From assembly GCA_000004985.1 (NCBI GenBank), contig GG738886.1: 64,000 bases of DNA; one strand, written 5' to 3'. This DNA is from Naegleria gruberi (lineage: Eukaryota). Shown in pieces: positions 39,804 through 54,786 of this stretch; position 1 is the first letter of the stretch, and every line of letters starts with the position of its first letter. The position numbers were made by a program, and so were the translations under genes. The notes under the pieces were generated by a model. The model saw only the letters and a program-made list of their open reading frames with translations, had not been told where the DNA came from and made no database searches.

Positions 39804-41558
39804 ATGGGAAATACACAACAGTCAAAGCCTGGTGGCCATTCTTCAATGAAGGGAATTTCTTCATCAACTTCCGTATCTAATAAGAGCAATAGTGAGGTTC
39901 CTCCCTCACAGAAATCAAAGCTTCCCTTGGAGAATATAATTACCTGTTTTAATGTTGAAGAAGGACCACTCTTCATATCTAAAGAAGCAAGAAATTATAA
40001 AGCCAGCTCGTTGAATCAGCACTCCATCTTGGATTTGAGAACAAATCAAAGGCTATTAGAGATTTTACAGAAGAGAATTAAATTACCAACAACAACACTG
40101 GAAAATAGCAATCCTAATGATAATATACAAGTATCAATGGTGATAATAGTGGTGCAAATGTTGTAAATGCTGATCAGAATGAGGAAAATAATAATGAAGA
40201 TCATCTGTTATCGGAAGAGTTATTATTGCTTTCTGAATATAAAAAGACGATAACAGAGAGGGTGAAACGATTCTATTTGGATGAAAGTGTTATGGGGGTG
40301 GAGGAAGAAAGAGCATTTGCTTGCTTGTTGGGATTAATGATTGGCGATGCTTGTGGAGCTCCACAAGAATTTTCATGGTATAAAGTACCTCCAAAGGTTT
40401 CATCTGAATCTGAATGGTTAGTTGACAAGATTTGGAAGCAGGATAAGGAATTTTTCGAGTTGACCTCAATGAATGATGAGCATGTTTGGAAAAAGCCACA
40501 CCATAACAAGTTCTTTTTGAAAGTTGGTCAATTTACTGATGATTCCAGTATGGTAGGTAGTAATATTCATTTGTTTGCAATTCTAATTTCATAATCATCA
40601 AAAATTATAGGCCTTGTGTGTTATGGATACACTAGTACAAAAGGTAATTGATGAAATTCATCAAAGGGAATGTCTTAATGCGGAGCAAAATAATGAAAAC
40701 TCGTTCAATTTTGATGGAAGAGAAATGAGACTTAGATTCCTCAATTGGGTTTATTTTGGATATAATAACACATTTGGAAAGGATGATTCAACACCTGGAT
40801 ATGGATCATCATGTGGATTGGGTTCAAATGTCAGAAGTTCCATTGTTGAGTTTATGAAAGATCCTAAAAGTGAGTTAACAAATGCAGGCGATTTAAATAC
40901 TTCTGGAAATGGAAGTATAATGAGATTAGCTCCTGTGCCAATATTTTGTTTGAAACTTGTGGAGAGTTTGGATAATACCGAACAAGTGGAATCTGCTTTA
41001 AGGATGGCTCACAAGCACAGCAAGACAACTCATCAAGGTGATGAAGCAGCAGAGCTTTGCAGGTTAATGACTTTCATAATTATTAATGCTGCCAAAGCTG
41101 CACACTCTATGAAACCACTCGAAATCAAAAAGCACATCTTTGACTTGTTGGAGAGTGGGAAATTCCAAAGCACTGTGGAGAGTGTCAATTGTCTTGTAAA
41201 GAGTCAAGTTGAAAATGGAAATGTAGAGGCAAGAAATTGGAATTGGAAAGATTTAAACTATCAGTATTGTCCTGAAAGAGCAGAAAAGGATAAGGGATAC
41301 ATTGGTTCGTATGCAATGGATGCTATGGCTATGGCCTTACATAATTTGGCTTTTACAGACTCATTTGAGGATGCCATCTTGCTGACTGCTAACATAGCCG
41401 GTGATTCAGACACAGTATCTGCCATTGTTGGACAGATGGCAGGAGCAATTTATGGGCTAAAGGCTGTTCCATTAGACTGGATTGAAAAGGTTTTATTCTG
41501 GGATTACAATGAGGATATTTTATTGAGATTATCAATTATTTATAATCATAATTTTTAA
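39804..41558 (+). CDS. ADP-ribosylglycohydrolase (ARH/DraG family) with N-terminal MGNTQQS myristoylation motif; join(39804..40130,40178..40552,40611..41558)
   Basis: ARH motifs FACLLGLMIGDACGAPQEF, SGNGSIMRLAPV and ANIAGDSDTVSAIVGQMAGAIYG. Introns of 47 nt (40131..40177) and 58 nt (40553..40610), both GTA..AG. Confidence 0.75.
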
Positions 41559-41625
41559 TTATTTACAAATTAGTTTACAATTATTCGTCATTATCTGACC
41601 AATAAGCTGTGGAATAAGATAAGTT
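41452..41625. repeat. Copy 1 of a ~160-bp direct repeat (3' end of the ARH CDS plus the convergent 3' end region)
   Basis: About 92% identical to 43166..43335. It covers the last 35 codons of the ARH gene (IYGLKAVPLDWIEKVLFWDYNEDILLRLSIIYNHNF*) and, on the other strand, a relic C-terminus ...SDNDE*. Confidence 0.8.
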
Positions 41626-41718
41626 TTGTAATCGTGAAATTAATTCGACGATTAAAACTATTTTAGTTATGAAAATTATGAATAGGAAAAGAATTTATTC
41701 GAATTCTCTGACATTACA

Positions 41719-43020
41719 TTAAATACCATATTTAAACCAATTATATAAAAGAGAAGATAATTTTACAGTTTGAAAGAACCATTCTTCACTTTGTAATACC
41801 GAAGAAACGATAGAAAATTCACGAAGTAATAATCGAACAGATTGATCTGAAATCATTCGATTTCTAATATGATTTTGCACAATATTTGGAAATGACAAGT
41901 TTTCAATGTTAAAAACAATTGCTTCCTCAATTGAATCATCCCACAATTTTCTTAACTTTCCTATGAATCCAAGGGTCTCTCCACTGTTCAAACAATCCTG
42001 TTTCATCAAATATTCACAATGATTCCCAATTTTAGAAAGAGCAGGATTTGAATCATTCCTCATATCGACGAATGCAAACAGAAAAAATAATGGATGTAAT
42101 AGAATGGGATCTTCAACTGTTTCCAAGAATGAATATTGACCACCTGAAAATAATTCTTCACCTCTTTTCTCTAATCTATTATATTTACATGCCATATCTA
42201 GTGTCATTTCAGGAAATTCCTCAAATCTCAATTGAATATATCTGATTAAAATATTATTAACTGCCAGTTTGGGATCAAACTTATCTAGAATTTCAAGAAA
42301 TAGTGTTGGGTAATTGCAGTTCAGAAAATAACAGCTGGATAAATTGAAGGTCTTGAAGTGTTTTTTTGGTTTGCCAAAGTTCGCAAACAAAATGATTCTT
42401 TCATCCTTTTGAGGAGATTGATTATGAAATTGTGTTCCAATAACATAATATGACCCATCGTCTGGAATATTAGAGACCAATAATTGAGAATAGTTCCATT
42501 TTGAGTCATAACTTGAAATTACATGATCTGAAATTTGTTCTGTGCAATCAGATTGTTCATGGAGAGTAAAGCTCTTCTTGGCTCTATTAGAAAATATCCA
42601 ATCTAAACTAATGAAAGAACGAGTTTCTTCCTTTTCTTTTTGTAATATCATCTTTGCACCCAATGTATTTTCGAATATGTAAGTGCCATTGATATGTTCT
42701 TCCAGAGCCCAAACAGTTTTATCAGAATTTCTAAAGTAAATTACTGGTTCTTGTTTTTCCTTAGCCATTGAGGTAATCTTCATCCTATCAACAACCGAAA
42801 CCATTCCAAATTTCATTGGTGAGGAGGTTGTTCCGTAAGGAATTCCATAATTTACAATGTTGCATAGTTGTGAAACAGGAACATGCTCTCCACAATCTAA
42901 TATTGCCAAAACCGTATAACAACTCTCATCAACACACTTCTCTAAAATCATTGGTTTCGCGTTGGTTACAGATGATGTTTGTGTGGCTTGCTTCCTTTTC
43001 CTTAATTCTTGTTGCTGCAT
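41719..43020 (-). CDS. Hypothetical protein (433 aa), single exon, located between the two repeat copies
   Basis: Intact ORF with its ATG at 43020. No recognised domain. Confidence 0.4.
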   Translation of the reverse strand: MQQQELRKRKQATQTSSVTNAKPMILEKCVDESCYTVLAILDCGEHVPVSQLCNIVNYGIPYGTTSSPMKFGMVSVVDRMKITSMAKEKQEPVIYFRNSDKTVWALEEHINGTYIFENTLGAKMILQKEKEETRSFISLDWIFSNRAKKSFTLHEQSDCTEQISDHVISSYDSKWNYSQLLVSNIPDDGSYYVIGTQFHNQSPQKDERIILFANFGKPKKHFKTFNLSSCYFLNCNYPTLFLEILDKFDPKLAVNNILIRYIQLRFEEFPEMTLDMACKYNRLEKRGEELFSGGQYSFLETVEDPILLHPLFFLFAFVDMRNDSNPALSKIGNHCEYLMKQDCLNSGETLGFIGKLRKLWDDSIEEAIVFNIENLSFPNIVQNHIRNRMISDQSVRLLLREFSIVSSVLQSEEWFFQTVKLSSLLYNWFKYGI

Positions 43021-43165
43021 TTTTTATTTGCTACATTATGTTTTTGATTCTTAGTGTAGTAAGTTACTATTCTATTCTGACTGAGGGAAAAACTCAACAC
43101 AATTCTTTCATTTCAGATAAGAAATGCTGGAAACAGTCATCTTCATTGATTCCAATCTAAAGTGA

Positions 43166-43335
43166 AAAAATTTATTGGCTTGAGGCTGTGCCATTTGACT
43201 GGATTGAAAAGGTTTTATTATGGGATTACAATGAGGACATTTTATTGAGATTATCAATTATTTACAATCATAATTTTTAATTATTTACAATTTAGTTTAC
43301 AATTATTCGTCAGCATCTGAGCAATAATCTGTGGA
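43166..43335. repeat. Copy 2 of the ~160-bp direct repeat
   Basis: Aligns to 41452..41625 with one 1-nt indel. The ARH-tail reading frame is preserved (WLEAVPFDWIEKVLLWDYNEDILLRLSIIYNHNF*) although no ARH gene lies upstream. Its far end forms the genuine 3' end (CSDADE*) of the histone-fold gene at 43303..43857. Confidence 0.8.
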
Positions 43336-43857
43336 ATAGTCACTATCATCATTCTTTGCCATATCTTTCACTGCATCAACGGTAGTGCCATTGTAAACAG
43401 TAATATTCCACAATCGTTTGGAACATTGGTTGATGGTTTGGAAGGTGATTTGCTTCTTCTTATTGTATTGTGTGATTATAGAAGCATCTCTCATCAGCTC
43501 ACCCAACAGTTGATCAAACATTTCTCTTGCCTTTTCATAAACGTCTGCTGAAATTCTCTTGCATCCATGAATTTTGGCAATTTTCTGGATTGACGCCTTC
43601 TTTAAAATTCCTTTTGGTTTCTCCTTCTCAGGTTCAGTCTTCTCACTACTAGATTTTCTAATGGATTTTGATGGGGTAGATGTTGCAGATGTTTTCTTCT
43701 CCGGTTTTGGTGCCTTTGCACTTGAAGATGATGCTGTAGGTGTTGTCTTTGGTGTGGTTATTGTGTCCTTGCTTGATTTTTTGGCCTTCGGAGTGGTTGT
43801 TTCTGGTTTCACAGTTTGAGGGTGTCTTGGACTCTTTTGTGCTTGCTTTGGAGGCAT
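43303..43857 (-). CDS. Histone-fold protein with H4-like fold, Lys/Pro/Thr/Ser-rich N-terminal tail and acidic C-terminus
   Basis: CKRISADVYEKAREMFDQLLGELMRDASIITQYNKKKQITFQTINQCSKRLWNITVYNG aligns position by position with histone H4 ([59 protein letters not shown]). The ATG is at 43857 (MPPKQAQK...). Confidence 0.5.
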   Translation of the reverse strand: MPPKQAQKSPRHPQTVKPETTTPKAKKSSKDTITTPKTTPTASSSSAKAPKPEKKTSATSTPSKSIRKSSSEKTEPEKEKPKGILKKASIQKIAKIHGCKRISADVYEKAREMFDQLLGELMRDASIITQYNKKKQITFQTINQCSKRLWNITVYNGTTVDAVKDMAKNDDSDYSTDYCSDADE

Positions 43858-44079
43858 TTTTTTAATTTGTTTTTGATGGCAAAAGTTATTTTTGTTCTTG
43901 TAGAAATTCGAACCAAAAACATGGATTTTTGTTTTGGAAACAAACTTGTGCGATAAACAAGCCATTGTGATTAATAGTACTTTCCTTATGTGTGGAAGCA
44001 CAACAGTTAGCACCAGTGAAAACAATGAGGATTTTTACCTGAAGTTTTACAATGAAAATAAAGTGCTGTGATAAAAAGT

Positions 44080-47000
44080 TTATTCGTAAACCTCAGCAAA
44101 GATAGTGTTGGAACGACCAAATATTTCTGGTGAGTACATTTCTTCACATTTGGTTGGTGGAATAATGAAGGATCCGATTTGAGTGGCACGACACAAATGT
44201 TTGAAAGTGTGAGTTCCTTCCCAGAGCAAACTGGAGAATGCTTCAACACGTTCATCTCTACTATTGACATGTTCATACCATGGATAGTTCCACCAACATC
44301 TAGATTTCTTAACTTCACCTGAAGGAGCGTTACCTTTCAATTCAGGATTAATTGGTTCCAAACCAGCAGGTAAAAAGTCAACCAAAGCAACATGATAACG
44401 TCTACTGGTATTAGTGAATGTAATGATAACTCTAACCAATTCACCAGCTTTAAATTTCCAACAGTTTCTTGCCTTATCAAATTGAGCATGAGATGGATCA
44501 GTAACACCCTCATAGCTTCTCTCAATTTGGAATCCATAATCAAGAGCTGGTAATAATAAATTCTTAGGAGCATAGTCCATTCCAATTCTATAGTACAATC
44601 TACCAGGACCTTCCTTCAAGATGGCCAATGTTTGTGCACCTTCAGTGGTAGTAAGTTGTCTCATTGGAATAGTAAGAACATTTTCATCCTTATTTCTTCC
44701 CTTGAAAACTTGTTCTCCACAATAATCTTCTCCAAGCCACATCTTGGCAGTGAAATCAGGAGTGACACCTTCAAAGACATGGAAATAACTGTTGAGAGCA
44801 AGAAGGATGAAAACATTTTCTTGAGTATTGCCCCATCTTCCCTTCTTCTTATGAGCTAAAAGTCCCTTGACAACCTTTGGAATGAGATTATTTTGTGGTA
44901 CCATATGAATGAGCATTTCCAAACAAATTCCATCAGTTCTTCTATCACTGTGCAACATGATAAGCTTGCTGCTTTGCTCATCTCCATAGCTTGTAACAAA
45001 GTTGGCTGTTTGAGCAGTTTCATTGACTCTCATTAAAATATAATTCACAATTTCAGTCGATTTTGTTGTGGCTTCCTTTCCATTGGCAAAGAACATTGCT
45101 GAAGCAGTCCAAGACAAAGTTTCAAGACAAGTATCCTTCAATCCACATTCTGAATATAATTGGTCAGCTTTTTGTTTGGCTCTTGAATCTCCCAATAGGG
45201 CGGCAACATAATAAGCATATGATCTAATGGCATATTTTGATGAAGGAGAGTAATATGTATCACGAATATAATTCTCAATATCACAGAGGAAATTAGTGAG
45301 TTTGGAAACAACATTATTATTGAGAGAATAACCTGCAATCTTGGCTCTAGCAAAGGCATGACCTACGTGGCAAGAAAGGTAAGGACTGACTGAATAATCA
45401 CTTCTGTAAGTCCACCATCCGAATCCACCATTTGGAAATTGTCTTCCATTCAAAATACCCAACGATAATTGTACAGTAGAGTTAAGCATAATTGAGCTTG
45501 GAATATCCTTGACCTTGAATGCTTGAAGTACATCCTTGAGAGCAACAATTGATAAAATCTTACTTGACAATTGTTCACAACATTCAAAGGAATAGTTGTA
45601 AACATAAAGGAAGGCATCAGTCAAGGCAGACAATGCTGTACTACTGGTAGTGATTTGTAAGCCACCAAATTGAGGATAGATATTTTCTGGAGCCTTAACT
45701 GGTTGGAATGTAGTGCAATCACCATCCAATTCACCATAATGAGCAAATGCTTCTGTGGTTGCTGGTGTGAATACTCTGAGTTCCTTTTCAACAGCATCAG
45801 AAAAGTTGATCAATTCGGAAACAGAAACAGCAACTTGGAATTTAGAAATACCAACCTTGGTTGCTTGCATTGGGAATCTCAATTCAGCTCTCTTAAGAGC
45901 AGGGATTTTAACATTCAAACCTCTCTTGGATGGATCCAACAATTCGAGTCCATCATAGGCAACAGCAATATGAACATTCAAATCAATAAGGGTTTGATTT
46001 TGTAAAACACAAGCAAATTCTGCCTTATCACCAAAGTTCAAAAATCTTGGAAGGGAAGGTCTAATTGCTAGTGGCAATTGTGCAACAATTGAAGATTCTC
46101 CCAAGCCGTACAAACTATCTAGTTTGGTAGAAACAGCTGTAATTCTGTATCTCGTCAAATTGTCAGGTAATTTGAATGGCACTCTGGCCTTGCCTTGAGC
46201 ATCTGTTACACATACTGGACTAAAGACAGCAACTGGATTGAAATTCTTTCTGACAACAATGGCAGATCCAACTTCCTCACCTCCTTCACATCCACCAGCA
46301 TCGTCATTACATTCTTCGCACTCTTTTTCCTCACATCTCTTTTTGGATTTCTTACAACTTTTCCTTTCTTGCACTTCTTCTTGGCAATCACAATCATCAT
46401 AACAACAACAGGAACGACATAAACATCCTTCACACTTGCAACATTCACATTCATCATCATCACATTCTTCCTCATCAGAACTATCTTCAGGAGGAGATTG
46501 AATGTTGATATTATCAAAACTCTTGACAAATACGTGGTCTCTCAATGAGAACTCTGAGAAGCTTTGGCCAGTACCAACTATGAATGTGCTCAAAGGATTA
46601 GATATTCTATAGCCAGTCAATGAAAGAACAGCTTCATCAACAGCAACGAGACAAACCTCACTTCCAGCTTGTGGTTTAGAGTTTTCCTTGTCAGTTACCA
46701 AAACATCAACAAAGGTCTCAACACCTGGAGTAACAAATTGCTTCTCTGGAGTGACCAATACATCGAGTTGATGCACTTTGGATGAGACACCAATATAACA
46801 AGTTCCATTTGCGTACGCAGGTTGTTTTGGGAGGTCGAGAGGTAATCCAAGAGAATCACTTCTTGATTCACTACCTTGGAGCATTACACTAACTGTTACA
46901 TTTGGAATGTGTTCTTTGGTAATTTTGAGAGTGAATTCAGTTGATCCAACTTCTGGATCAATGGTGATTGGAATATTATCGATTACAGAATTGAGGCAAA

Positions 47001-50000
47001 CAGTAACAACACCATTAGCCTTACCGTCGAATGGAGATTGAATCAAAATTTTGGCTTCTTCTCCAATTTCATACATTCCTTTGTCTGCAACCAAGAGGGC
47101 TTGTTGCTTTGAAAGTCTTGAACCAACAACATCCTTCTTTGATTTACCACCAGTTACGTATAGGGAGTTATTTGAAGAGTTAGTTAAACCGGTTTCTGTA
47201 TCCTTAATTCTCAATGTGAACTTGTAGTTACCACCCTTATCGAAACTAATAGGATATTTGACTGGTTCAGATTCAGACTTGAATACCTTCTTGAAAACTT
47301 CAACAGATTCATGAACAACACTGAACCCCTTCTTCTTTTCAACGGTTGTTGTAGCAACCAGTTCCATATCAATACCAGGAATAGTATTACCTTCAAGATC
47401 AGTGGTAACCATGAATAAATTGGTTTGAACATTTGGTTTAACAAACATCTTTTCAATCTTCATTCCACAATAATATTTGCAAGGGTGAACAGTAAATGTA
47501 GTGGAATCATTAATAGTTTGACGATTAATATCTTGAACCGATGTTTCAACAGTAATGTTCATTGGAGATTTCTCTTGTCTTTCGGTTTCATCGAAGAGGA
47601 TTGCAATTTCATGTTCACCATCAGAATTACAAACACCTTCAAATGTAACTGGTTTGTAATTTTCACTTCCATAAGTATCATAACACCAATAACGATAAAA
47701 TGGATTTGAGATGTAAGTGGAGAAGTTGAAACCAGAAAAGTTTGGTGGGGTATAACTTGTCTTTGATTGTTTGATAACATAGGAACACTTTGAACCAGAG
47801 AGACCTCCACCTGAGTAGTATGCTGCTTGGGTCTTGAGAATTGTTAAGTTATTAACAATATATCTGCATGGTGGGACAGATGTTGAGACTGTAAATTCTG
47901 GAGTACGGAACTCTTGTACATTAAAGTTTGTATGCATTGTCCTACCGTTGAACTCAATGGAATGAGAGCCCAAGTTAACATTGTCTGGAATTGAAAACTT
48001 AATATCAAAGGAACCATGTTCTGAGATGGTGTATTTTCCAGTGTGATATTTTGCACCTCTAGAATCTTTAACAATGTATTCATAAGTTCCCTTTTTTGGT
48101 AGAGTTGGAATAGTTCTTGATCCGTACTTTTCAACCTTGAGTTCTCTACAAATACCCTTGATGAAAATCTCTTCTCCAGGTTTATAGAGTCCTCTATCGT
48201 TGAAAATATTATATGCTAATCTATCATCAATTCTGTAGTGATAAAGGTATAAATCTGGAATAAAGCAGGTATCATTCAAATAAGATCCAATCAGTGTATA
48301 TTCACTTCCGTTTGAGGTGTGACTAAGAACAGCAATTCCTGTTTCAGAGTCTGGTTTTGTGCTAAATGATGGAAGGAATTTCTTTTGTTTGAAACTAACA
48401 TCAGATTTGATGACAGTTCCATCAATTAAAGAATTGGCCCAACAGTAAACATTACCTGTTCGTGTATCGAAAAAGCCATCCATTGCCATCTTTGTCACCT
48501 GAATCCAGGAAATGTAAACTGGTCTGTATTTCCAATTATCTTTCCAATGTGTTTTGGATGGTTCAACTGCAACCAAAAGTTGACCTAACATGTCATTTGG
48601 ATGTTGTAAGTATTGGGTCAAGTCAATTTCTGTATCAACTGGTTCATCTGGTTGACCATTGGTATTTACCATAGTGTCAAGAACTTTTTTTCCAGAAAGA
48701 GATAATGTTGCATTGGAATAAGCATCATAGTAGAAAACATTGTTTGAATAATCACCTGGTTTAACTTGATAAACTTGGACATGGATAGCTTCAAGATTTA
48801 CACTGAATACGGAGAAGGATGGTTTAGTATTGACAGTAGGATCAATAACCATCATTCCGGTCTTGTAGGCTTGTAAAGATTGAGCTGCTGGTCCAACTTG
48901 GAAAGTAAAGTTATTTTCTCCTGCAAGTTTTTGTCCCCAAACATCTGTTATTTGACCAGAGAGTTGAACTTGGTATGTGGTACGTCCCTTAATATTACCA
49001 GATATTGTCAAGTAATTTCCAGATGGATTAATACGTAATCTTTCAATAGGTGGTTGAATACTTATATGTTCCTCATTTAATAATTCAATATCAATATTAT
49101 TACTAAATGTGAAAGAGAATGGTTCCAATGGAAGCTTTCCACCAGTATGGGAAGTAACTTTGAATTCTGGATAGTTTGTAGCTGTGAAGGAAATATCTTT
49201 TTCTGTTCTCAAAGGACCTTCAATAGATCTGGCTCCTTGCAATAATGTTATAGCGAGGGTTTCTGACAGGGCTACTCTCCTACTTGCTACATCAATTTCA
49301 ATCCAAACATGTCTATTTGGAGCAGAATTTTCCAATTTGTAATTTACAGAATTGTACAATGAGGATGATCTCTTTTCCAATGAAGATTCTTTAAGCTTTC
49401 CTTCAATATAACTCTTTACAACTGAAGTACGGCCATCATTTTGAACCAGCTTGCAAGAGTATCCAGGTATATTTACACTAGAAAAGATTTGGTTTGGATC
49501 AATATCTTGATCAAACTCCATATAAACAAATGGAAATTCGTTAATTGGAACTGCATGGTAACTATTTGGAAGATAGTTGAGCATTGTCAATCTAGGTGTT
49601 TCAAATTTAAAGGAAACATTCTTATCCAATACTCCTCCAACACTAGACTTGGTTTTTTCACAATCAATAGTGACTGTGTATTCCGTAGACATGTCAAATC
49701 TATAATTTGGTTCAAAGAATAAAGTCTTTGCACCCATCCATCTAAATCTACCACCATTCTTTGGGAATGGTTCAATTTTTACAAAAGAAAAATCTTGATC
49801 ATGAACATCTTCAACACCAGACACAGCAACCATTGGCTGAGAGAATGTGATGGAAATATGTGGCACTGATCGATCAACTGGACCTTCTGGCAAATATCTC
49901 ACCACTGCCAAACTTGATCCCAACAATGCTTCTTCTTCCTTTCTCACTTGTTCTGGTTTTTCCAATTTCTCTTCTGGTGGGAATGGAATTTCATTAACAT

Positions 50001-50334
50001 CAGCACTTCTTGGAGGTTTGAGGGTTTTTTCTCTCATGAAAAAGTCACCTTCTTCTGATGTTGATTTTTGAATTTGTGGCAATCTGGCCAATAATTTCTC
50101 TGTCAATTCATCACCAAGAGATTCAACACTTGCACCACTCTTTTGATCCTCATCCTTCTTGACAGAAGTTGCCTTTGATCCAAGTAAAATCATGGCAGTA
50201 GAATCTTCAGGTGTTGGCTCCCTAACATGAATATTCAACCCAACAGTGTAATCTTCATTATTTGCACCAAGAATGCTTGTCTCACTGCAAGGTTCCTCCT
50301 CTTCATAATCCATATCATCATCATAAAACACCAT
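44080..50334 (-). CDS. Alpha-2-macroglobulin/thioester-containing protein family member, single exon about 2085 aa
   Basis: Thioester-like region NYSFECCEQLSSKILSIVAL (CxEQ in place of GCGEQ). The thioester-domain region FPNGGFGWWTYRSDYSVSPYLSCHVGHAFARAKIAG and the domain order fit the A2M family. The acidic N-terminus (MVFYDDDMDYEEEEP) has no signal peptide. Confidence 0.8.
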   Translation of the reverse strand: MVFYDDDMDYEEEEPCSETSILGANNEDYTVGLNIHVREPTPEDSTAMILLGSKATSVKKDEDQKSGASVESLGDELTEKLLARLPQIQKSTSEEGDFFMREKTLKPPRSADVNEIPFPPEEKLEKPEQVRKEEEALLGSSLAVVRYLPEGPVDRSVPHISITFSQPMVAVSGVEDVHDQDFSFVKIEPFPKNGGRFRWMGAKTLFFEPNYRFDMSTEYTVTIDCEKTKSSVGGVLDKNVSFKFETPRLTMLNYLPNSYHAVPINEFPFVYMEFDQDIDPNQIFSSVNIPGYSCKLVQNDGRTSVVKSYIEGKLKESSLEKRSSSLYNSVNYKLENSAPNRHVWIEIDVASRRVALSETLAITLLQGARSIEGPLRTEKDISFTATNYPEFKVTSHTGGKLPLEPFSFTFSNNIDIELLNEEHISIQPPIERLRINPSGNYLTISGNIKGRTTYQVQLSGQITDVWGQKLAGENNFTFQVGPAAQSLQAYKTGMMVIDPTVNTKPSFSVFSVNLEAIHVQVYQVKPGDYSNNVFYYDAYSNATLSLSGKKVLDTMVNTNGQPDEPVDTEIDLTQYLQHPNDMLGQLLVAVEPSKTHWKDNWKYRPVYISWIQVTKMAMDGFFDTRTGNVYCWANSLIDGTVIKSDVSFKQKKFLPSFSTKPDSETGIAVLSHTSNGSEYTLIGSYLNDTCFIPDLYLYHYRIDDRLAYNIFNDRGLYKPGEEIFIKGICRELKVEKYGSRTIPTLPKKGTYEYIVKDSRGAKYHTGKYTISEHGSFDIKFSIPDNVNLGSHSIEFNGRTMHTNFNVQEFRTPEFTVSTSVPPCRYIVNNLTILKTQAAYYSGGGLSGSKCSYVIKQSKTSYTPPNFSGFNFSTYISNPFYRYWCYDTYGSENYKPVTFEGVCNSDGEHEIAILFDETERQEKSPMNITVETSVQDINRQTINDSTTFTVHPCKYYCGMKIEKMFVKPNVQTNLFMVTTDLEGNTIPGIDMELVATTTVEKKKGFSVVHESVEVFKKVFKSESEPVKYPISFDKGGNYKFTLRIKDTETGLTNSSNNSLYVTGGKSKKDVVGSRLSKQQALLVADKGMYEIGEEAKILIQSPFDGKANGVVTVCLNSVIDNIPITIDPEVGSTEFTLKITKEHIPNVTVSVMLQGSESRSDSLGLPLDLPKQPAYANGTCYIGVSSKVHQLDVLVTPEKQFVTPGVETFVDVLVTDKENSKPQAGSEVCLVAVDEAVLSLTGYRISNPLSTFIVGTGQSFSEFSLRDHVFVKSFDNINIQSPPEDSSDEEECDDDECECCKCEGCLCRSCCCYDDCDCQEEVQERKSCKKSKKRCEEKECEECNDDAGGCEGGEEVGSAIVVRKNFNPVAVFSPVCVTDAQGKARVPFKLPDNLTRYRITAVSTKLDSLYGLGESSIVAQLPLAIRPSLPRFLNFGDKAEFACVLQNQTLIDLNVHIAVAYDGLELLDPSKRGLNVKIPALKRAELRFPMQATKVGISKFQVAVSVSELINFSDAVEKELRVFTPATTEAFAHYGELDGDCTTFQPVKAPENIYPQFGGLQITTSSTALSALTDAFLYVYNYSFECCEQLSSKILSIVALKDVLQAFKVKDIPSSIMLNSTVQLSLGILNGRQFPNGGFGWWTYRSDYSVSPYLSCHVGHAFARAKIAGYSLNNNVVSKLTNFLCDIENYIRDTYYSPSSKYAIRSYAYYVAALLGDSRAKQKADQLYSECGLKDTCLETLSWTASAMFFANGKEATTKSTEIVNYILMRVNETAQTANFVTSYGDEQSSKLIMLHSDRRTDGICLEMLIHMVPQNNLIPKVVKGLLAHKKKGRWGNTQENVFILLALNSYFHVFEGVTPDFTAKMWLGEDYCGEQVFKGRNKDENVLTIPMRQLTTTEGAQTLAILKEGPGRLYYRIGMDYAPKNLLLPALDYGFQIERSYEGVTDPSHAQFDKARNCWKFKAGELVRVIITFTNTSRRYHVALVDFLPAGLEPINPELKGNAPSGEVKKSRCWWNYPWYEHVNSRDERVEAFSSLLWEGTHTFKHLCRATQIGSFIIPPTKCEEMYSPEIFGRSNTIFAEVYE

Positions 50335-50573
50335 TTTCTCTCCTATTAAAATTAAATAAAAATTATAATTATCAATCAAAAGAATGTTGCTGTATTTTTT
50401 TTGATCTGTTGGGAGTTGGAGATCGGCACCTATTTTATGCCTGTTCGGATGAACTTGTGTGGATAAGGAGGCGAACAGGGAATCATTAAAAGGAAGAACA
50501 TAATGAGCATTTCAAGATGTAATAACTCTCATTGTGTGAATGGCACACTGAGAGTAATTGATGAACGAAAAAT

Positions 50574-53057: not shown

Positions 53058-54786
53058 GTGACTGTAATTTTGAGTGATTTCTTGTTGAGAGGAATGTCCT
53101 ATGATGATACTGATCATTTTCCTCAACAACATCGATGGCTAACAGGTAAATTCCAATCTCAAACCAAAGGGAAGCTTAAGTGGATGAAAAGAAGGGATGA
53201 ATTGTTTGAGAAACGTTCGTCATTCATTCCGATAGAATTTTGCCATGATAAGGAATTGGTTTTGCACATGTTTAAAACAATAGAAATAGATGCACATGTA
53301 TTTGATTGCATTCAAGCTGATGTGATAGACAATGATTTGCTTGTTAGAATTATGAATAGATTGAATGATAGTTCAGTTAGATCTGAAGCAATAGATAATT
53401 TTATAGAACTTTTCAAAAGGTATAATATTACCTTAGACGGAAATTCAAAGGAAGGAAAGGAATTTGTTTCAGCCTATGAGATGGAAAATGGCAAGTATGA
53501 AACAGCCTTAAAACTATTCATAGCAAGTGGGAACGTCTCTAATATATTAAGACAAGATGTTGATTTCATTTACGACGTATTTAAACATTTTAATGGAGAT
53601 GAAAGAATGTTACATATTGTACTTTATTTTTGTATGGCAGATAAGGATGCTTTGCTTAGGTTCGCAGAGATTAATCCACATGTGGTGGCTTGTGCATCAC
53701 AAGAATTTCAACAAGATGAGAACTTTCTTAGAGAACTCATTGATACGAACACTGACTATCTGAAACATTTAATATTTGCTACCGAACACGACAAGAATAG
53801 TGCAAAAGCAAAGAAATGCAGGGAAATATTATCAAATGATTCGTTGAGAAGAAAGATGGAGAATGACGAGAAGTTTATACTACATTATTGTGCTGTCGAT
53901 CCTGAACTTTTCAGGTTGATCTCTCCAAAATTACTAGTTGACAAGAAATTCTTATTCAACATATTGGAAAAGATAGAGAAATGCCCTTTTGCATTGTCTA
54001 CAGTTTTGAATCATATTCCAGAAGTCATGAAAAGCGATTTTGATATTATGTTAAAGGCAGTTAAGATAGATCCTATCTCTTTTATGCATGCTTCTGATCA
54101 GCTAATGCATGACCAAGAATTTGTATTGAAATGTCTTGGACGGTATTCTGATCTAATATTTCCAATGATTCCTAATGAATTCCTTCAAGATAGAGAATTC
54201 CTTATGGAGATGTTGGAAATAAATGGAAGCTTACTTGAGTATGCTCCTTCTGAATTCCAAGGTAAGTTAATAATATTACACATTCTAACAATGTTAAAAA
54301 GATGATGAAGAGATGGTTCTTCAAGCCTTAAAATCTGACGGTGGTTCAATTGATTTTGTCTCTACACGGCTTAAAAACGATAGAGATTTTCTATTAAAAG
54401 CCAAGAAGCAAACAAATCTATATGTGAACCTGCTATCGAGGGCTATTGTAAATGATGAATTCTTACTGGAATCATTAGAATCACCATTTGTGGATGATGT
54501 TTATGAAGAAATAGAAGCACGAGGCTTAAGGGACAATTATGACTTTATGAAAGAAGCCATAAAAAGAGTGTATAGTTACACTGAATTACCAGATAATTTT
54601 AAAGCGTTGAAGGAAATGTCATTATTGGCAATATCAGTTGATGGTAGAGAATTAAAGTATGTTCACCATAAGGATGACCTTGAGGTTCAAAAGGCTGCCG
54701 TGAACCAAAATGGATATTTCATTAAGCAATCACAAGAATTGTTGGACTATAGGTTAGAATGTGCATATTTTGGATGCAAGATTTGA
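53058..54786 (+). CDS. DUF4116-like repeat protein; join(53058..54261,54302..54786), with a possible 5' exon at 52858..53061
   Basis: Repeats such as FILHYCAVDPELFRLISPKLLVDKKFLFNILEK and LLEYAPSEFQ|DDEEMVLQALKSDGGSIDFVS. A 40-nt GTAAGT..AAAAAG intron (54262..54301) keeps the repeat periodicity. Confidence 0.55.

What the first reader, a model, noticed from the sequence alone, without database searches (positions are those of the whole stretch)
43303..43857. Histone H4-fold protein with a long K/P/T/S-rich N-tail and acidic C-tail
The 60-residue core matches histone H4 almost position by position (KRIS..VYE....L..LL....RDA...T.Y..K..IT..TI...SKR......YNG). However, the protein carries a roughly 120-aa lysine/proline/threonine-rich N-terminal tail and ends in DDSDYSTDYCSDADE. 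It is neither a canonical H4 nor obviously a known H4-fold partner such as CENP-T or CENP-S. Its 3' end lies inside the duplicated repeat described separately.
Basis: partly seen in the sequence, partly recalled or inferred. Interest (0 to 1): 0.5.

Follow-up and report, generated by a model that had tools for sequence, protein, structure and literature searches.

The report
Fast-evolving histone H4 variant in Naegleria
This Naegleria gruberi gene encodes a divergent, quickly evolving copy of histone H4 with an 82-residue basic front tail and an acidic end tail; H4 almost never has variants, but nothing yet shows what this one does.

Summary
Window 43303-43857 (minus strand) is an intact 184-codon gene, identical to the unnamed N. 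gruberi 'predicted protein' XP_002674149.1 / NAEGRDRAFT_70797.

- **Family:** the fold region matches histone H4 and nothing else well. The family profile against H4 gives 96% probability, E 4e-9. CENP-T, CENP-S, TAF6, H3, H2A and H2B all score 9% or less. All top 60 solved-structure sequence hits are H4.
- **Relatives:** full-length relatives exist in a sister Naegleria (62% identity, same gene neighbours), N. fowleri (about 33%) and one environmental contig.
- **Selection:** it is under purifying selection (dN/dS about 0.25), yet its protein changes 5-6 times faster than the neighbouring genes.
- **Kept and lost H4 features:** it keeps the R45 equivalent, the basic second loop and Y98. It lacks every classical H4 tail mark site and has replaced R40, L49, K59, Y72 and Y88.

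Best reading: a Naegleria-lineage H4 variant that pairs with an H3-type histone. Its basic tail probably binds DNA, and its acidic D-x-[DE]-[YF] end may bind H2A-H2B or chaperones. Function, partner and expression are untested. The 3' end does lie in a 170-bp duplication left by a 1.55-kb insertion.

The parts
43303..43857 (-). Complete coding sequence of the H4-like protein (184 codons plus TAA stop), equal to N. gruberi XP_002674149.1 / NAEGRDRAFT_70797
   Evidence: ORF list and sequence. 100% identity to the NCBI protein. Start conserved as MPP[KR] in sister Naegleria and N. fowleri, with an in-frame stop 9 codons upstream in the sister species.
43612..43857 (-). N-terminal tail, residues 1-82: K/S/T/P-rich, net charge +12.6, five [ST]P sites (SPRH, TPKA, TPKT, TPTA, TPSK), predicted disordered
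   Evidence: Composition, charge and motif count. AlphaFold pLDDT 40-58 with no secondary structure. Conserved blocks MPP[KR], AQxK[ST]PR and K-x-E-[ST]-[TV]-TP across three Naegleria sequences.
43387..43611 (-). H4-type histone fold, residues 83-157: helices 87-96, 104-131 and 139-150, then the H4-like C-terminal segment ITVY (Y155 = H4 Y98). R101 (43555-43557) = H4 R45
   Evidence: PDB sequence hits are all H4. hhalign 96%, E 4.6e-9. AlphaFold pLDDT 84-94 across residues 91-150. Foldseek: top 50 hits are 26-35% identical; those overlapping searches are labelled histone H4 there; rmsd about 1.8 A over 71 columns for most. Position table.
43306..43386 (-). C-terminal extension, residues 158-184: a weakly predicted short helix (160-169), then an acidic disordered tail, net charge -7.6, with D-S-D-Y (171-174) and S-T-D-Y (175-178) at 43324-43347. 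D-x-[DE]-[YF] is present in all four family members
   Evidence: The resemblance to the acidic cap-anchor H2A-H2B-binding motif of Spt16, Anp32E, YL1 and APLF (described in PMC6101569) is an inference only.
43858..44079 (-). 222-bp upstream intergenic region, the presumed promoter and 5' UTR, between the alpha-2-macroglobulin-like gene stop and the H4-like start. Contains a non-conserved in-frame ATG at 43963-43965
   Evidence: Promoter function is inferred from position only.
43169..43338 (.). Copy 2 of the 170-nt direct repeat. It holds the real 3' end of the H4-like gene (last 11 codons plus stop, 43303-43338), the short spacer, and a relic of the last ~37 codons of the ADP-ribosylglycohydrolase gene (43169-43280)
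41447..41616 (.). Copy 1 of the 170-nt direct repeat. It holds the real 3' end of the ADP-ribosylglycohydrolase gene (stop at 41558), plus an in-frame relic of the H4-like gene's last 11 codons and stop (41581-41616, YSTAYWSDNDE*)
   Evidence: Relic read from the alignment.
41719..43020 (-). Context, not part of the histone gene: an orphan 433-aa ORF inside the 1.55-kb segment inserted between the two repeat copies. The segment is absent in the sister Naegleria, where the H4-like and glycohydrolase genes are 21 nt apart
   Evidence: No Pfam match. Only itself found in the 5.8-billion protein collection. Sister-species contig L001.

Best explanation
This is a Naegleria-lineage paralogue of histone H4, best called an H4 variant. 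It is not a CENP-T, CENP-S, TAF6 or NF-Y-type histone-fold protein.

**Shown:**
- The fold region descends from H4. It keeps the hydrophobic core, the minor-groove arginine (R101 = H4 R45), the basic second loop (KKKQIT = KRKTVT) and the C-terminal tyrosine (Y155 = H4 Y98).
- The gene is intact, syntenic in a sister species and under purifying selection. Its protein sequence nonetheless changes 5-6 times faster than the flanking genes.

**Inferred:**
- It forms a handshake dimer with an H3-type histone and is deposited on DNA in a nucleosome or nucleosome-like particle, at particular sites or life stages.
- The canonical H4 tail, with its acetyl-lysine, K20 and basic-patch signals, is replaced by an 82-residue lysine-rich tail with S/T-P-x-K sites. 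This tail would bind DNA electrostatically, like the SPKK-type tails of H1 and sperm H2B. It would probably be released by proline-directed (CDK-type) phosphorylation.
- The added acidic tail, with its conserved D-x-[DE]-[YF], either grips the DNA-binding surface of H2A-H2B, as chaperone cap-anchor motifs do, or recruits a dedicated chaperone, or folds back on the basic tail.
- Replacement of H4 Y72 and Y88 suggests an altered contact with H2B.
For: **H4 descent**
- All PDB sequence hits shown are H4: single sequence E 3e-8, family profile E 2e-9.
- hhalign gives 96% probability, E 4e-9 for H4. Every other eukaryotic histone-fold family tested scores 9% or less, and an archaeal histone (HMfB) 50%.
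- All top 50 Foldseek PDB hits are 26-35% identical to the query, and most fit at about 1.8 A over 71 columns. Those overlapping (e.g. 2hue_C, 4uuz_B, 7wlr_B) are labelled histone H4 there.

**Fold:** helices 87-96, 104-131 and 139-150, with pLDDT 84-94.

**Residues:**
- Retained in the family: I34, A38, R45, A69, T73 and Y98 are invariant. Positions 35, 36, 39 and 77-79 stay basic. H75 is kept in 3 of 4 members.

**A real gene**
- Full-length relatives: P0002 at 62% identity, N. fowleri FDP41_013417 at about 33%, and P0040.
- Synteny with the A2M-like and ADP-ribosylglycohydrolase genes in the sister species.
- dN/dS is 0.33/1.31 overall and 0.20/0.98 in the fold. Neighbouring genes have dN of only 0.053-0.066.

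**Tails**
- Charges, [ST]P sites and the aromatic residues of the C-tail.
- Alignments.
- The cap-anchor motif is defined in PMC6101569.

**No replication-type histone 3' stem-loop.** AATAAA-like signals lie downstream, which fits a variant rather than a canonical histone gene.
Against: - There is no evidence here of expression, nuclear location, a partner or chromatin binding.
- The N. gruberi protein misses Pfam thresholds: Histone 10.8-13.4 bits against a cut-off of 26.4.
- Positions important in canonical nucleosomes are changed in all members: R40 to I/M, L49 to D, K59 to D, Y72 to aliphatic, Y88 to polar. From my own knowledge, Y72 and Y88 lie in the H4-H2B dimer-tetramer interface, so octamer formation with standard H2A-H2B is uncertain.
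- No H4 tail modification site is present.
- The family is tiny (four sequences, Neff 2.2), so the profile and the AlphaFold model rest on little data.
- The source organism of P0040 is unknown. Its contig is 42% GC against 33-38% for Naegleria.
- The cap-anchor and SPKK-like readings rest on short motifs in low-complexity sequence and could be coincidental.
Confidence: 0.6

Rival explanations
1. Cryptic CENP-T-like kinetochore linker. The C-terminal histone fold would anchor at centromeric DNA, and the long disordered, phospho-regulated N-terminal arm would recruit the outer kinetochore. This would fill the apparent absence of the inner-kinetochore CCAN proteins in Naegleria.
For: The architecture is superficially the same: a disordered N-terminal arm with five [ST]P sites, followed by a C-terminal histone fold. 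[quoted passage not shown] Fast evolution is typical of centromere proteins.
Confidence: 0.05
2. A non-nucleosomal histone-fold subunit. An H4-derived fold would have been recruited into another complex (TFIID/SAGA-like, a remodeller accessory pair, or a repair complex), pairing with a non-histone partner rather than with H3.
Against: Sequence-level similarity is specifically to H4, including the DNA-contact arginine, the basic second loop and the C-terminal TxY strand that docks H2A. TAF6 scores only 5-6%. At 184 aa the protein has no room for the TAF6 HEAT domain. A strongly basic tail (+12.6) suits DNA binding.
Confidence: 0.15
3. A soluble histone decoy or built-in chaperone. The H4 fold would sequester an H3-type histone, or the acidic cap-anchor tail would hold H2A-H2B, buffering histone supply rather than being stably incorporated.
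For: The acidic tail has conserved D-x-[DE]-[YF] in all four members, resembling chaperone cap-anchor motifs (PMC6101569). Dimer-tetramer interface tyrosines are changed.
Against: DNA-contact residues are retained under selection. The highly basic N-tail is hard to explain for a soluble decoy. There is no precedent that I know of.
Confidence: 0.1
4. A decaying H4 duplicate or annotation artefact with no function.
For: Low identity to H4 (22-30%). No Pfam call. Annotated only as 'predicted protein'. Sits next to a recent insertion and duplication.
Against: Intact ORFs of similar length and architecture occur in at least three Naegleria genomes or assemblies, and one environmental contig encodes a protein of similar architecture. 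dN/dS is about 0.2-0.25, well below 1. Terminal motifs and the start codon are conserved. Synteny is conserved.
Confidence: 0.05

Closest known systems
Canonical histone H4
   Same: The three-helix fold aligns position by position from H4 I29 to F100 at 33% identity. R45, the basic second loop, T73, A69, I34, A38 and Y98 are kept. The predicted model fits chains labelled histone H4 at about 1.8 A.
   Different: The K5/K8/K12/K16 acetylation sites, the K16-R19 basic patch and K20 are all absent, replaced by an 82-residue K/S/T/P tail. A 27-residue acidic C-tail is added. R40, L49, K59, Y72 and Y88 are replaced in every member. It evolves fast (dN 0.33 to the sister species), whereas H4 is the most conserved histone (PMC4751559).
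Elongated, deeply divergent H4 variants of dinoflagellates, Amoebophrya and Perkinsus (PMC4751559)
   Same: H4-derived folds with long extensions and strong divergence, coexisting with conventional H4. They are described as intriguing because H4 has the fewest known variants. The exhaustive search also recovered many long-tailed H4-like proteins from other organisms, several with the same L49-to-D change.
   Different: They come from an unrelated lineage (Alveolata, against Heterolobosea/Discoba). No specific sequence affinity was seen: the Naegleria fold is no closer to them than to canonical H4. The acidic aromatic C-tail was not found outside the four family members.
Trypanosoma brucei H4.V (PDB 9r1d, H3.V-H4.V nucleosome)
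   Same: A lineage-specific H4 variant in a member of Discoba, shown structurally to form nucleosomes. It appears among the hits: phmmer E 1.3e-6 and Foldseek 27% identity.
   Different: From my own knowledge, H4.V is of normal H4 length and close to the trypanosome's own H4. It has no long basic tail and no acidic C-tail. No special relationship to the Naegleria protein was detected.
CENP-T (kinetochore histone-fold protein)
   Same: The general layout is shared: a disordered, phosphorylatable N-terminal arm followed by a C-terminal histone fold.
   Different: There is no profile similarity: 0.4-6%. The fold is H4-type and lacks the CENP-T two-helix extension. The arm is short and lacks hydrophobic binding motifs.
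SPKK-type basic tails of H1 and sea-urchin sperm H2B, and acidic cap-anchor motifs of H2A-H2B chaperones (Spt16, Anp32E, YL1, APLF)
   Same: These are resemblances in how the tails might work. The N-tail has S/T-P-x-K/R sites in a lysine-rich tail. The C-tail has an acidic run with an aromatic residue three positions after an acidic cap (motif described in PMC6101569).
   Different: These are short linear motifs, not homologous domains. Neither has been reported on an H4-type histone to my knowledge, and no binding was tested here.

Membership tests
Histone H4 family | Sequence or profile similarity specific to H4 across the histone fold | tested here: met
   All PDB sequence hits shown are H4, E 3e-8 and 2e-9. 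hhalign 96% probability, E 4e-9, against 9% or less for H3, H2A, H2B, CENP-T, CENP-S and TAF6.
Histone H4 family | Passes the curated Pfam histone model (PF00125, or PF15511 which I recall also covers H4) | tested here: not met
   N. gruberi protein: PF00125 10.8-13.4 bits against a cut-off of 26.4. CENP-T_C is not reported for it. Best family member: PF00125 E 1.1e-5.
Histone H4 family | Three-helix histone fold (alpha1-L1-alpha2-L2-alpha3) followed by the short C-terminal T-L-Y strand | tested here: met
   AlphaFold helices 87-96, 104-131 and 139-150 at pLDDT 84-94. Foldseek rmsd about 1.8 A to chains labelled histone H4. ITVY aligns to TLY, with Y98 invariant.
Histone H4 family | DNA-contact residues (R45 minor-groove arginine; basic R35/R36/R39; L2 K77-R78-K79-T80) | tested here: met
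   R45 is invariant. Positions 35, 36 and 39 are basic in nearly all members. L2 is KKKQ / KKKQ / RKKT / KRVR. R40 is lost in all members.
Histone H4 family | Canonical N-terminal tail (GK repeats K5/K8/K12/K16, basic patch K16-R19, K20) | tested here: not met
   No alignable counterpart exists. The region before the fold is EPEKEKPK, preceded by a K/S/T/P-rich tail.
Histone H4 family | Extreme sequence conservation between species | tested here: not met
   62% identity to the sister Naegleria and about 33% to N. fowleri. dN 0.33 against 0.05-0.07 for the neighbouring genes.
Histone H4 family | Heterodimerises with H3 or CenH3 and is incorporated into nucleosomes | not testable with these tools
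   Multimer prediction with Naegleria H3-type proteins could not be submitted, and there are no experimental data. Replacement of Y72 and Y88 leaves H2B docking uncertain.
CENP-T | Histone fold matching CENP-T, with the C-terminal two-helix extension | tested here: not met
CENP-T | Long disordered N-terminal region carrying Ndc80/Spc24-25 and Mis12 binding motifs regulated by CDK | tested here: inconclusive
   The region is disordered with five [ST]P sites. No helical or hydrophobic motif is present, and Naegleria-specific motifs are unknown.
CENP-T | Presence of the partner CENP-W | not tested
   No other histone-fold gene was found in the window when searching with the core histones H3, H4, H2A and H2B. 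A preprint reports the CCAN as apparently lost in Naegleria.
TAF6 / TAF6L | N-terminal H4-like histone fold plus a large C-terminal HEAT-repeat domain | tested here: not met
   hhalign 5-6%. The protein is 184 aa with the fold at its C-terminal half and no further domain.
CENP-S (MHF1) | Profile similarity to the CENP-S histone fold | tested here: not met
   hhalign 0.8%, E 0.07.
NF-YB / NC2 / Pol-epsilon type (Pfam CBFD_NFYB_HMF) | Passes PF00808 | tested here: not met

The most novel reading that the evidence does not exclude
The protein is a dedicated H4 for a specialised chromatin domain, most interestingly the centromere. It would pair with one of the Naegleria CenH3 (CENP-A) paralogues in a lineage that seems to have lost the CCAN. 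Its basic, phospho-regulated N-tail or its acidic C-tail would take over part of the linker role. That would make it the first centromere-specific H4 variant, and would explain its CenH3-like rate of evolution. Other specialised domains, such as the nucleolar rDNA plasmid or cyst and flagellate chromatin, would be equally new for an H4 variant.
Probability: 0.07. Interest if true: 0.8.

Novelty: new variant of a known kind. Interest (0 to 1): 0.45.

Why it matters
[quoted passage not shown] A conserved but fast-evolving H4 paralogue is therefore unusual. This one discards every classical H4 tail signal and gains a basic S/TP-rich tail and an acidic aromatic tail.

It is unannotated: 'predicted protein', no Pfam call, and no paper in the searchable library mentions its accessions. 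Histone surveys that rely on Pfam thresholds would therefore miss it.

If it enters nucleosomes, it offers a natural experiment on how much of H4 is dispensable for the fold's job, and on what a tethered acidic tail does next to H2A-H2B. Naegleria is now tractable for antibody imaging of chromatin proteins, so the question can be tested.

If it turns out to be a minor lineage-specific chromatin protein, its significance is modest.

Tried and rejected
**Searches that added little or nothing**
- Single-sequence Pfam scan gave only sub-threshold histone-fold hits.
- The word-indexed search of 5.8 billion proteins found only the protein itself with the single query. With the family profile it found only the input members.
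- Two metagenome contig scans, with the N. gruberi protein and with P0040, found nothing.
- The AlphaFold-database fold library was unavailable.

**Hypotheses rejected**
- CENP-T, CENP-S, TAF6 and NF-Y-type membership were each tested and rejected.
- Viral origin: the neighbours are ordinary eukaryotic genes, syntenic in a sister Naegleria, with uniform GC content. Giant-virus histones are poor matches, for example Medusavirus H4 at 13% identity.
- Pseudogene: rejected by dN/dS and conservation.

**Other negative checks**
- No histone 3' stem-loop or other RNA family lies around the gene.
- No other histone gene is in the window.
- Accession searches in the paper library, and in the supplements of the chromatin-evolution study, found no mention. 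No supplement files were held for the Naegleria kinetochore preprint.
- The orphan 433-aa ORF in the adjacent insertion has no detectable homologue.
Full report
**Origin of the window and the gene**

The window is Naegleria gruberi nuclear DNA. The ORF at 43303-43857 on the minus strand has 184 codons plus a TAA stop. It is 100% identical to XP_002674149.1 / EFC41405.1 / D2VPB6, 'predicted protein', locus NAEGRDRAFT_70797.

Neighbouring ORFs are ordinary eukaryotic genes:
- a 2099-aa bacterial-type alpha-2-macroglobulin
- an ADP-ribosylglycohydrolase
- VPS9, Hsp70, WD40/Utp12 and DUF4116 proteins

GC content is uniform at 31-38%. No paper in the searchable library mentions the accessions. The supplements of the eukaryotic chromatin proteomics study that included N. 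gruberi do not list them. No supplement files were held for the 2026 Naegleria kinetochore preprint, so these could not be checked.

**Check of the observation**

The H4 resemblance is real and specific.
- phmmer against all PDB chains returns only histone H4 among the 60 hits shown. The best are Giardia and trypanosome H4 at E 3e-8 to 1e-7, covering query residues 70-149.
- tblastn of the four canonical core histones against the 64-kb window finds only this gene, with H4, at E 2e-8.

The composition of the tails is as described:
- Residues 1-82 are K 21%, S 17%, T 17%, P 15%, with net charge +12.6.
- Residues 158-184 are 29% Asp, with net charge -7.6, ending DDSDYSTDYCSDADE.

The one inaccuracy is the tail length. 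The H4-alignable region begins near residue 78-83 and helix alpha-1 is 87-96, so the tail is about 82-86 residues, not about 120.

The start codon is secure. The sister species and N. fowleri also start MPP[KR]. In the sister species an in-frame stop lies nine codons upstream. The in-frame upstream ATG in N. gruberi (43963-43965) is therefore not conserved.

**Relatives**

An exhaustive HMMER pass over 1.84 billion cluster representatives found three full-length relatives.
- P0002: 192 aa, 62% identity, E 7e-41, from a Logan assembly contig.
- P0011/P0072: N. fowleri FDP41_013417, 200 or 215 aa depending on the gene model. It is 35% identical in that search (31-33% in the alignments), E 4e-9.
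- P0040: 184 aa, from an ENA metagenome contig of 42% GC and unknown organism, E 2e-4.

All four share the same layout:
- a start of MP[PA][KR]
- a long low-complexity tail
- the H4-type fold
- a conserved aromatic 'Y' strand
- an acidic tail containing D-x-[DE]-[YF]

All other hits are canonical H4, fused gene models, or long-tailed divergent H4-like proteins of other organisms. One exception, P0004, is an unrelated Cys-rich repeat protein. Profile and metagenome searches added no further members.

**Which histone-fold family**

- The H4 sequence was written from my own memory; it is identical to the H4 units in the fused proteins returned.
- The CENP-T sequences were read from the alignment output of the PDB search.
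- The TAF6 and CENP-S queries were confirmed 100% identical to PDB chains.

| Target | hhalign probability | E-value |
|---|---|---|
| Human H4 | 96% | 4e-9 (72-76 columns, 33% identity, includes TLYGF) |
| Archaeal HMfB (from memory) | 50% | 1.6e-4 |
| H2B | 8.7% | 0.0039 |
| Human CENP-T | 6% | 0.006 |
| TAF6 | 5-6% | 0.006-0.007 |
| H3 | 1.7% | 0.028 |
| CENP-S | 0.8% | 0.07 |
| Chicken CENP-T | 0.4% | 0.15-0.16 |
| H2A (from memory) | 0.2% | 0.26 |

The profile search of the PDB again lists only H4 in its top 60, at E 2e-9.

Pfam does not call the N. gruberi protein: Histone scores 10.8-13.4 bits against a cut-off of 26.4. Across the family the best Pfam hits are Histone (1.1e-5), TAF (4e-4) and CENP-T_C (0.028, one member only).

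**Structure**

An AlphaFold2 model from the four-sequence alignment shows:
- residues 1-86 disordered
- helices 87-96, 104-131 and 139-150, with block pLDDT 84-94
- a weak helix at 160-169, pLDDT about 54
- a disordered acidic end

Foldseek against the PDB returns 50 top hits that are 26-35% identical to the query. Those overlapping (e.g. 2hue_C, 4uuz_B, 7wlr_B) are labelled histone H4 there, and most fit at about 1.8 A over 71 columns.

**What is kept and what is lost relative to H4**

Kept in all or nearly all members:
- I34, A38, A69 and T73
- R45, the minor-groove arginine
- R55 (K in one member)
- basic residues at positions 35, 36 and 39
- the basic second loop (KKKQIT, KKKQIT, RKKTIQ, KRVRIS, against KRKTVT in H4)
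- H75 in three of four members
- Y98, which is invariant

Changed in all members:
- R40 to I/M
- L49 to D
- K59 to D
- Y72 to I/I/V/L
- Y88 to Q/R/K/H

The K16-K20 basic patch and the GK acetylation repeats have no counterpart.

From my own knowledge, Y72, Y88 and Y98 sit in the H4 contacts with H2A-H2B. The dimer-tetramer interface is therefore only partly preserved.

**Is it a functional gene, and how fast does it evolve?**

In the sister-species contig L001 the gene lies between the same alpha-2-macroglobulin-like gene and the same ADP-ribosylglycohydrolase gene. Nei-Gojobori estimates between the two species are:

| Region | dN | dS | dN/dS |
|---|---|---|---|
| H4-like, whole gene | 0.33 | 1.31 | about 0.25 |
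| H4-like, fold | 0.20 | 0.98 | about 0.20 |
| H4-like, N-tail | 0.46 | 1.80 | about 0.26 |
| H4-like, C-tail | 0.44 | 1.23 | about 0.36 |
| Glycohydrolase neighbour | 0.066 | 1.44 | about 0.05 |
| Macroglobulin neighbour | 0.053 | 0.60 | about 0.09 |

The gene is under purifying selection, yet its protein changes five to six times faster than its neighbours. That is the opposite of canonical H4. Synonymous sites are near saturation, so the ratios are rough.

The N. fowleri orthologue is not syntenic. No histone 3' stem-loop was found, and AATAAA-like signals lie downstream of the stop. This fits a polyadenylated variant-type mRNA, though only weakly.

**Most likely mechanism**

Shown: it is an H4-derived histone fold that retains DNA-contact residues, and it is kept by selection in Naegleria.

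Inferred:
- It pairs with an H3-type histone and sits on DNA in a nucleosome or nucleosome-like particle.
- Its tail cannot receive the canonical H4 signals. Instead it offers a lysine-rich arm with five S/T-P sites, positionally conserved in the three Naegleria proteins. This is analogous to the SPKK-type DNA-binding tails of H1 and sperm H2B, and is likely switched by proline-directed kinases.
- Its acidic tail carries D-x-[DE]-[YF] in all four members. This has the form of the cap-anchor motif with which Spt16, Anp32E, YL1 and APLF grip the DNA-binding face of H2A-H2B (PMC6101569).
- H4's C-terminus lies beside the H2A docking domain. A tethered motif there could stabilise or destabilise H2A-H2B, recruit a dedicated chaperone, or neutralise the basic tail in cis.

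These tail mechanisms rest on short motifs in low-complexity sequence and are the weakest part of the account.

**Rivals**

- **Cryptic CENP-T.** This is attractive because a 2026 preprint concludes that Naegleria has apparently lost the CCAN and that cryptic components may exist. However, the fold is H4-type, the CENP-T extension is absent, and the short tail has no helical or hydrophobic binding motif. I give it about 5%.
- **Non-nucleosomal histone-fold subunit**, about 15%. Not excluded.
- **Soluble decoy or chaperone-like role**, about 10%. Not excluded.
- **Dead duplicate.** Contradicted by conservation and dN/dS, about 5%.

The most novel reading still open is a specialised H4 for centromeric chromatin, pairing with a CenH3 paralogue, or for another domain. 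I put this at about 7%.

**The repeat at the 3' end**

The 170-nt direct repeat lies at 41447-41616 and 43169-43338 and is 92% identical. It is a duplicated copy of the junction where the glycohydrolase gene and the H4-like gene converge.
- Copy 1 holds the real glycohydrolase 3' end, plus an in-frame relic of the last 11 codons and stop of the H4-like gene (YSTAYWSDNDE*, 41581-41616).
- Copy 2 holds the real H4-like 3' end, plus a relic of the glycohydrolase 3' end.

Between the copies lie 1.55 kb carrying an orphan 433-aa ORF with no Pfam domain and no homologue. In the sister species the two stop codons are only 21 nt apart. This is therefore an insertion with a long target duplication in the N. 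gruberi lineage. It left the H4-like coding sequence intact.

**Verdict**

The gene encodes an unannotated, fast-evolving H4 variant with a novel tail architecture. It is confined, as far as the databases show, to Naegleria plus one environmental relative.

It is a new variant of a known kind, and of moderate interest. It is unusual because H4 variants are rare. There is, however, no functional evidence and no expression data yet.

Noticed in passing
window 41447-41616 and 43169-43338, with 41617-43168 between them: A 170-bp direct duplication (92% identical) of the convergent 3' ends of the ADP-ribosylglycohydrolase and H4-like genes flanks a 1.55-kb insertion. In a sister Naegleria (L001) the two genes are only 21 nt apart. 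Each copy keeps a relic of the other gene's 3' end. This looks like an insertion with an unusually long target duplication.
   Followed up: yes
window 41719-43020 (-): The 433-aa ORF inside the insertion is an orphan. It has no Pfam domain, and the only match in the 5.8-billion protein collection is itself (N. gruberi 'predicted protein'). Its origin and the insertion mechanism are unknown.
   Followed up: partly
window 44080-50379 (-): An intronless 2099-aa bacterial-type alpha-2-macroglobulin (Pfam bMG10, A2M, A2M_BRD, MG2, Big_5). It has a striking Cys/Asp/Glu-rich insert (…DDECECCKCEGCLCRSCCCYDDCDCQEE…) where I would expect the bait region. It may be an acquisition from bacteria. It is conserved in the sister Naegleria (87% nt identity at the 3' end).
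   Followed up: no
window 43963-43965 (-): An in-frame ATG lies 36 codons upstream of the annotated start (MACLSHKFVSK…). It is not conserved: the sister species has a stop codon nine codons upstream of its MPPR start.
   Followed up: yes
proteins P0015-P0022, P0027, P0031, P0058, P0064, P0065, P0069 (one search hits): Many long-tailed, divergent H4-like proteins from other organisms and metagenomes carry the same H4 L49-to-D change ('KR[IVLM]S.D.Y') as the Naegleria family. This makes them look more like the generic or archaeal histone-fold consensus. It is unresolved whether this marks a wider class of relaxed H4 paralogues or is convergence.
   Followed up: partly
L003 8001-8648 (N. fowleri VFQX01000019.1): The N. 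fowleri orthologue FDP41_013417 sits in a different gene neighbourhood (DUF455, FAM183, an AKAP7/2'-5' RNA ligase-like gene). It has two competing gene models, of 200 and 215 aa. The 215-aa model, starting MPPKK, matches the N. gruberi start.
   Followed up: partly
window 53058-54305 (+): A 415-aa protein with DUF4116 repeats, an uncharacterised repeat family. Not examined further.
   Followed up: no
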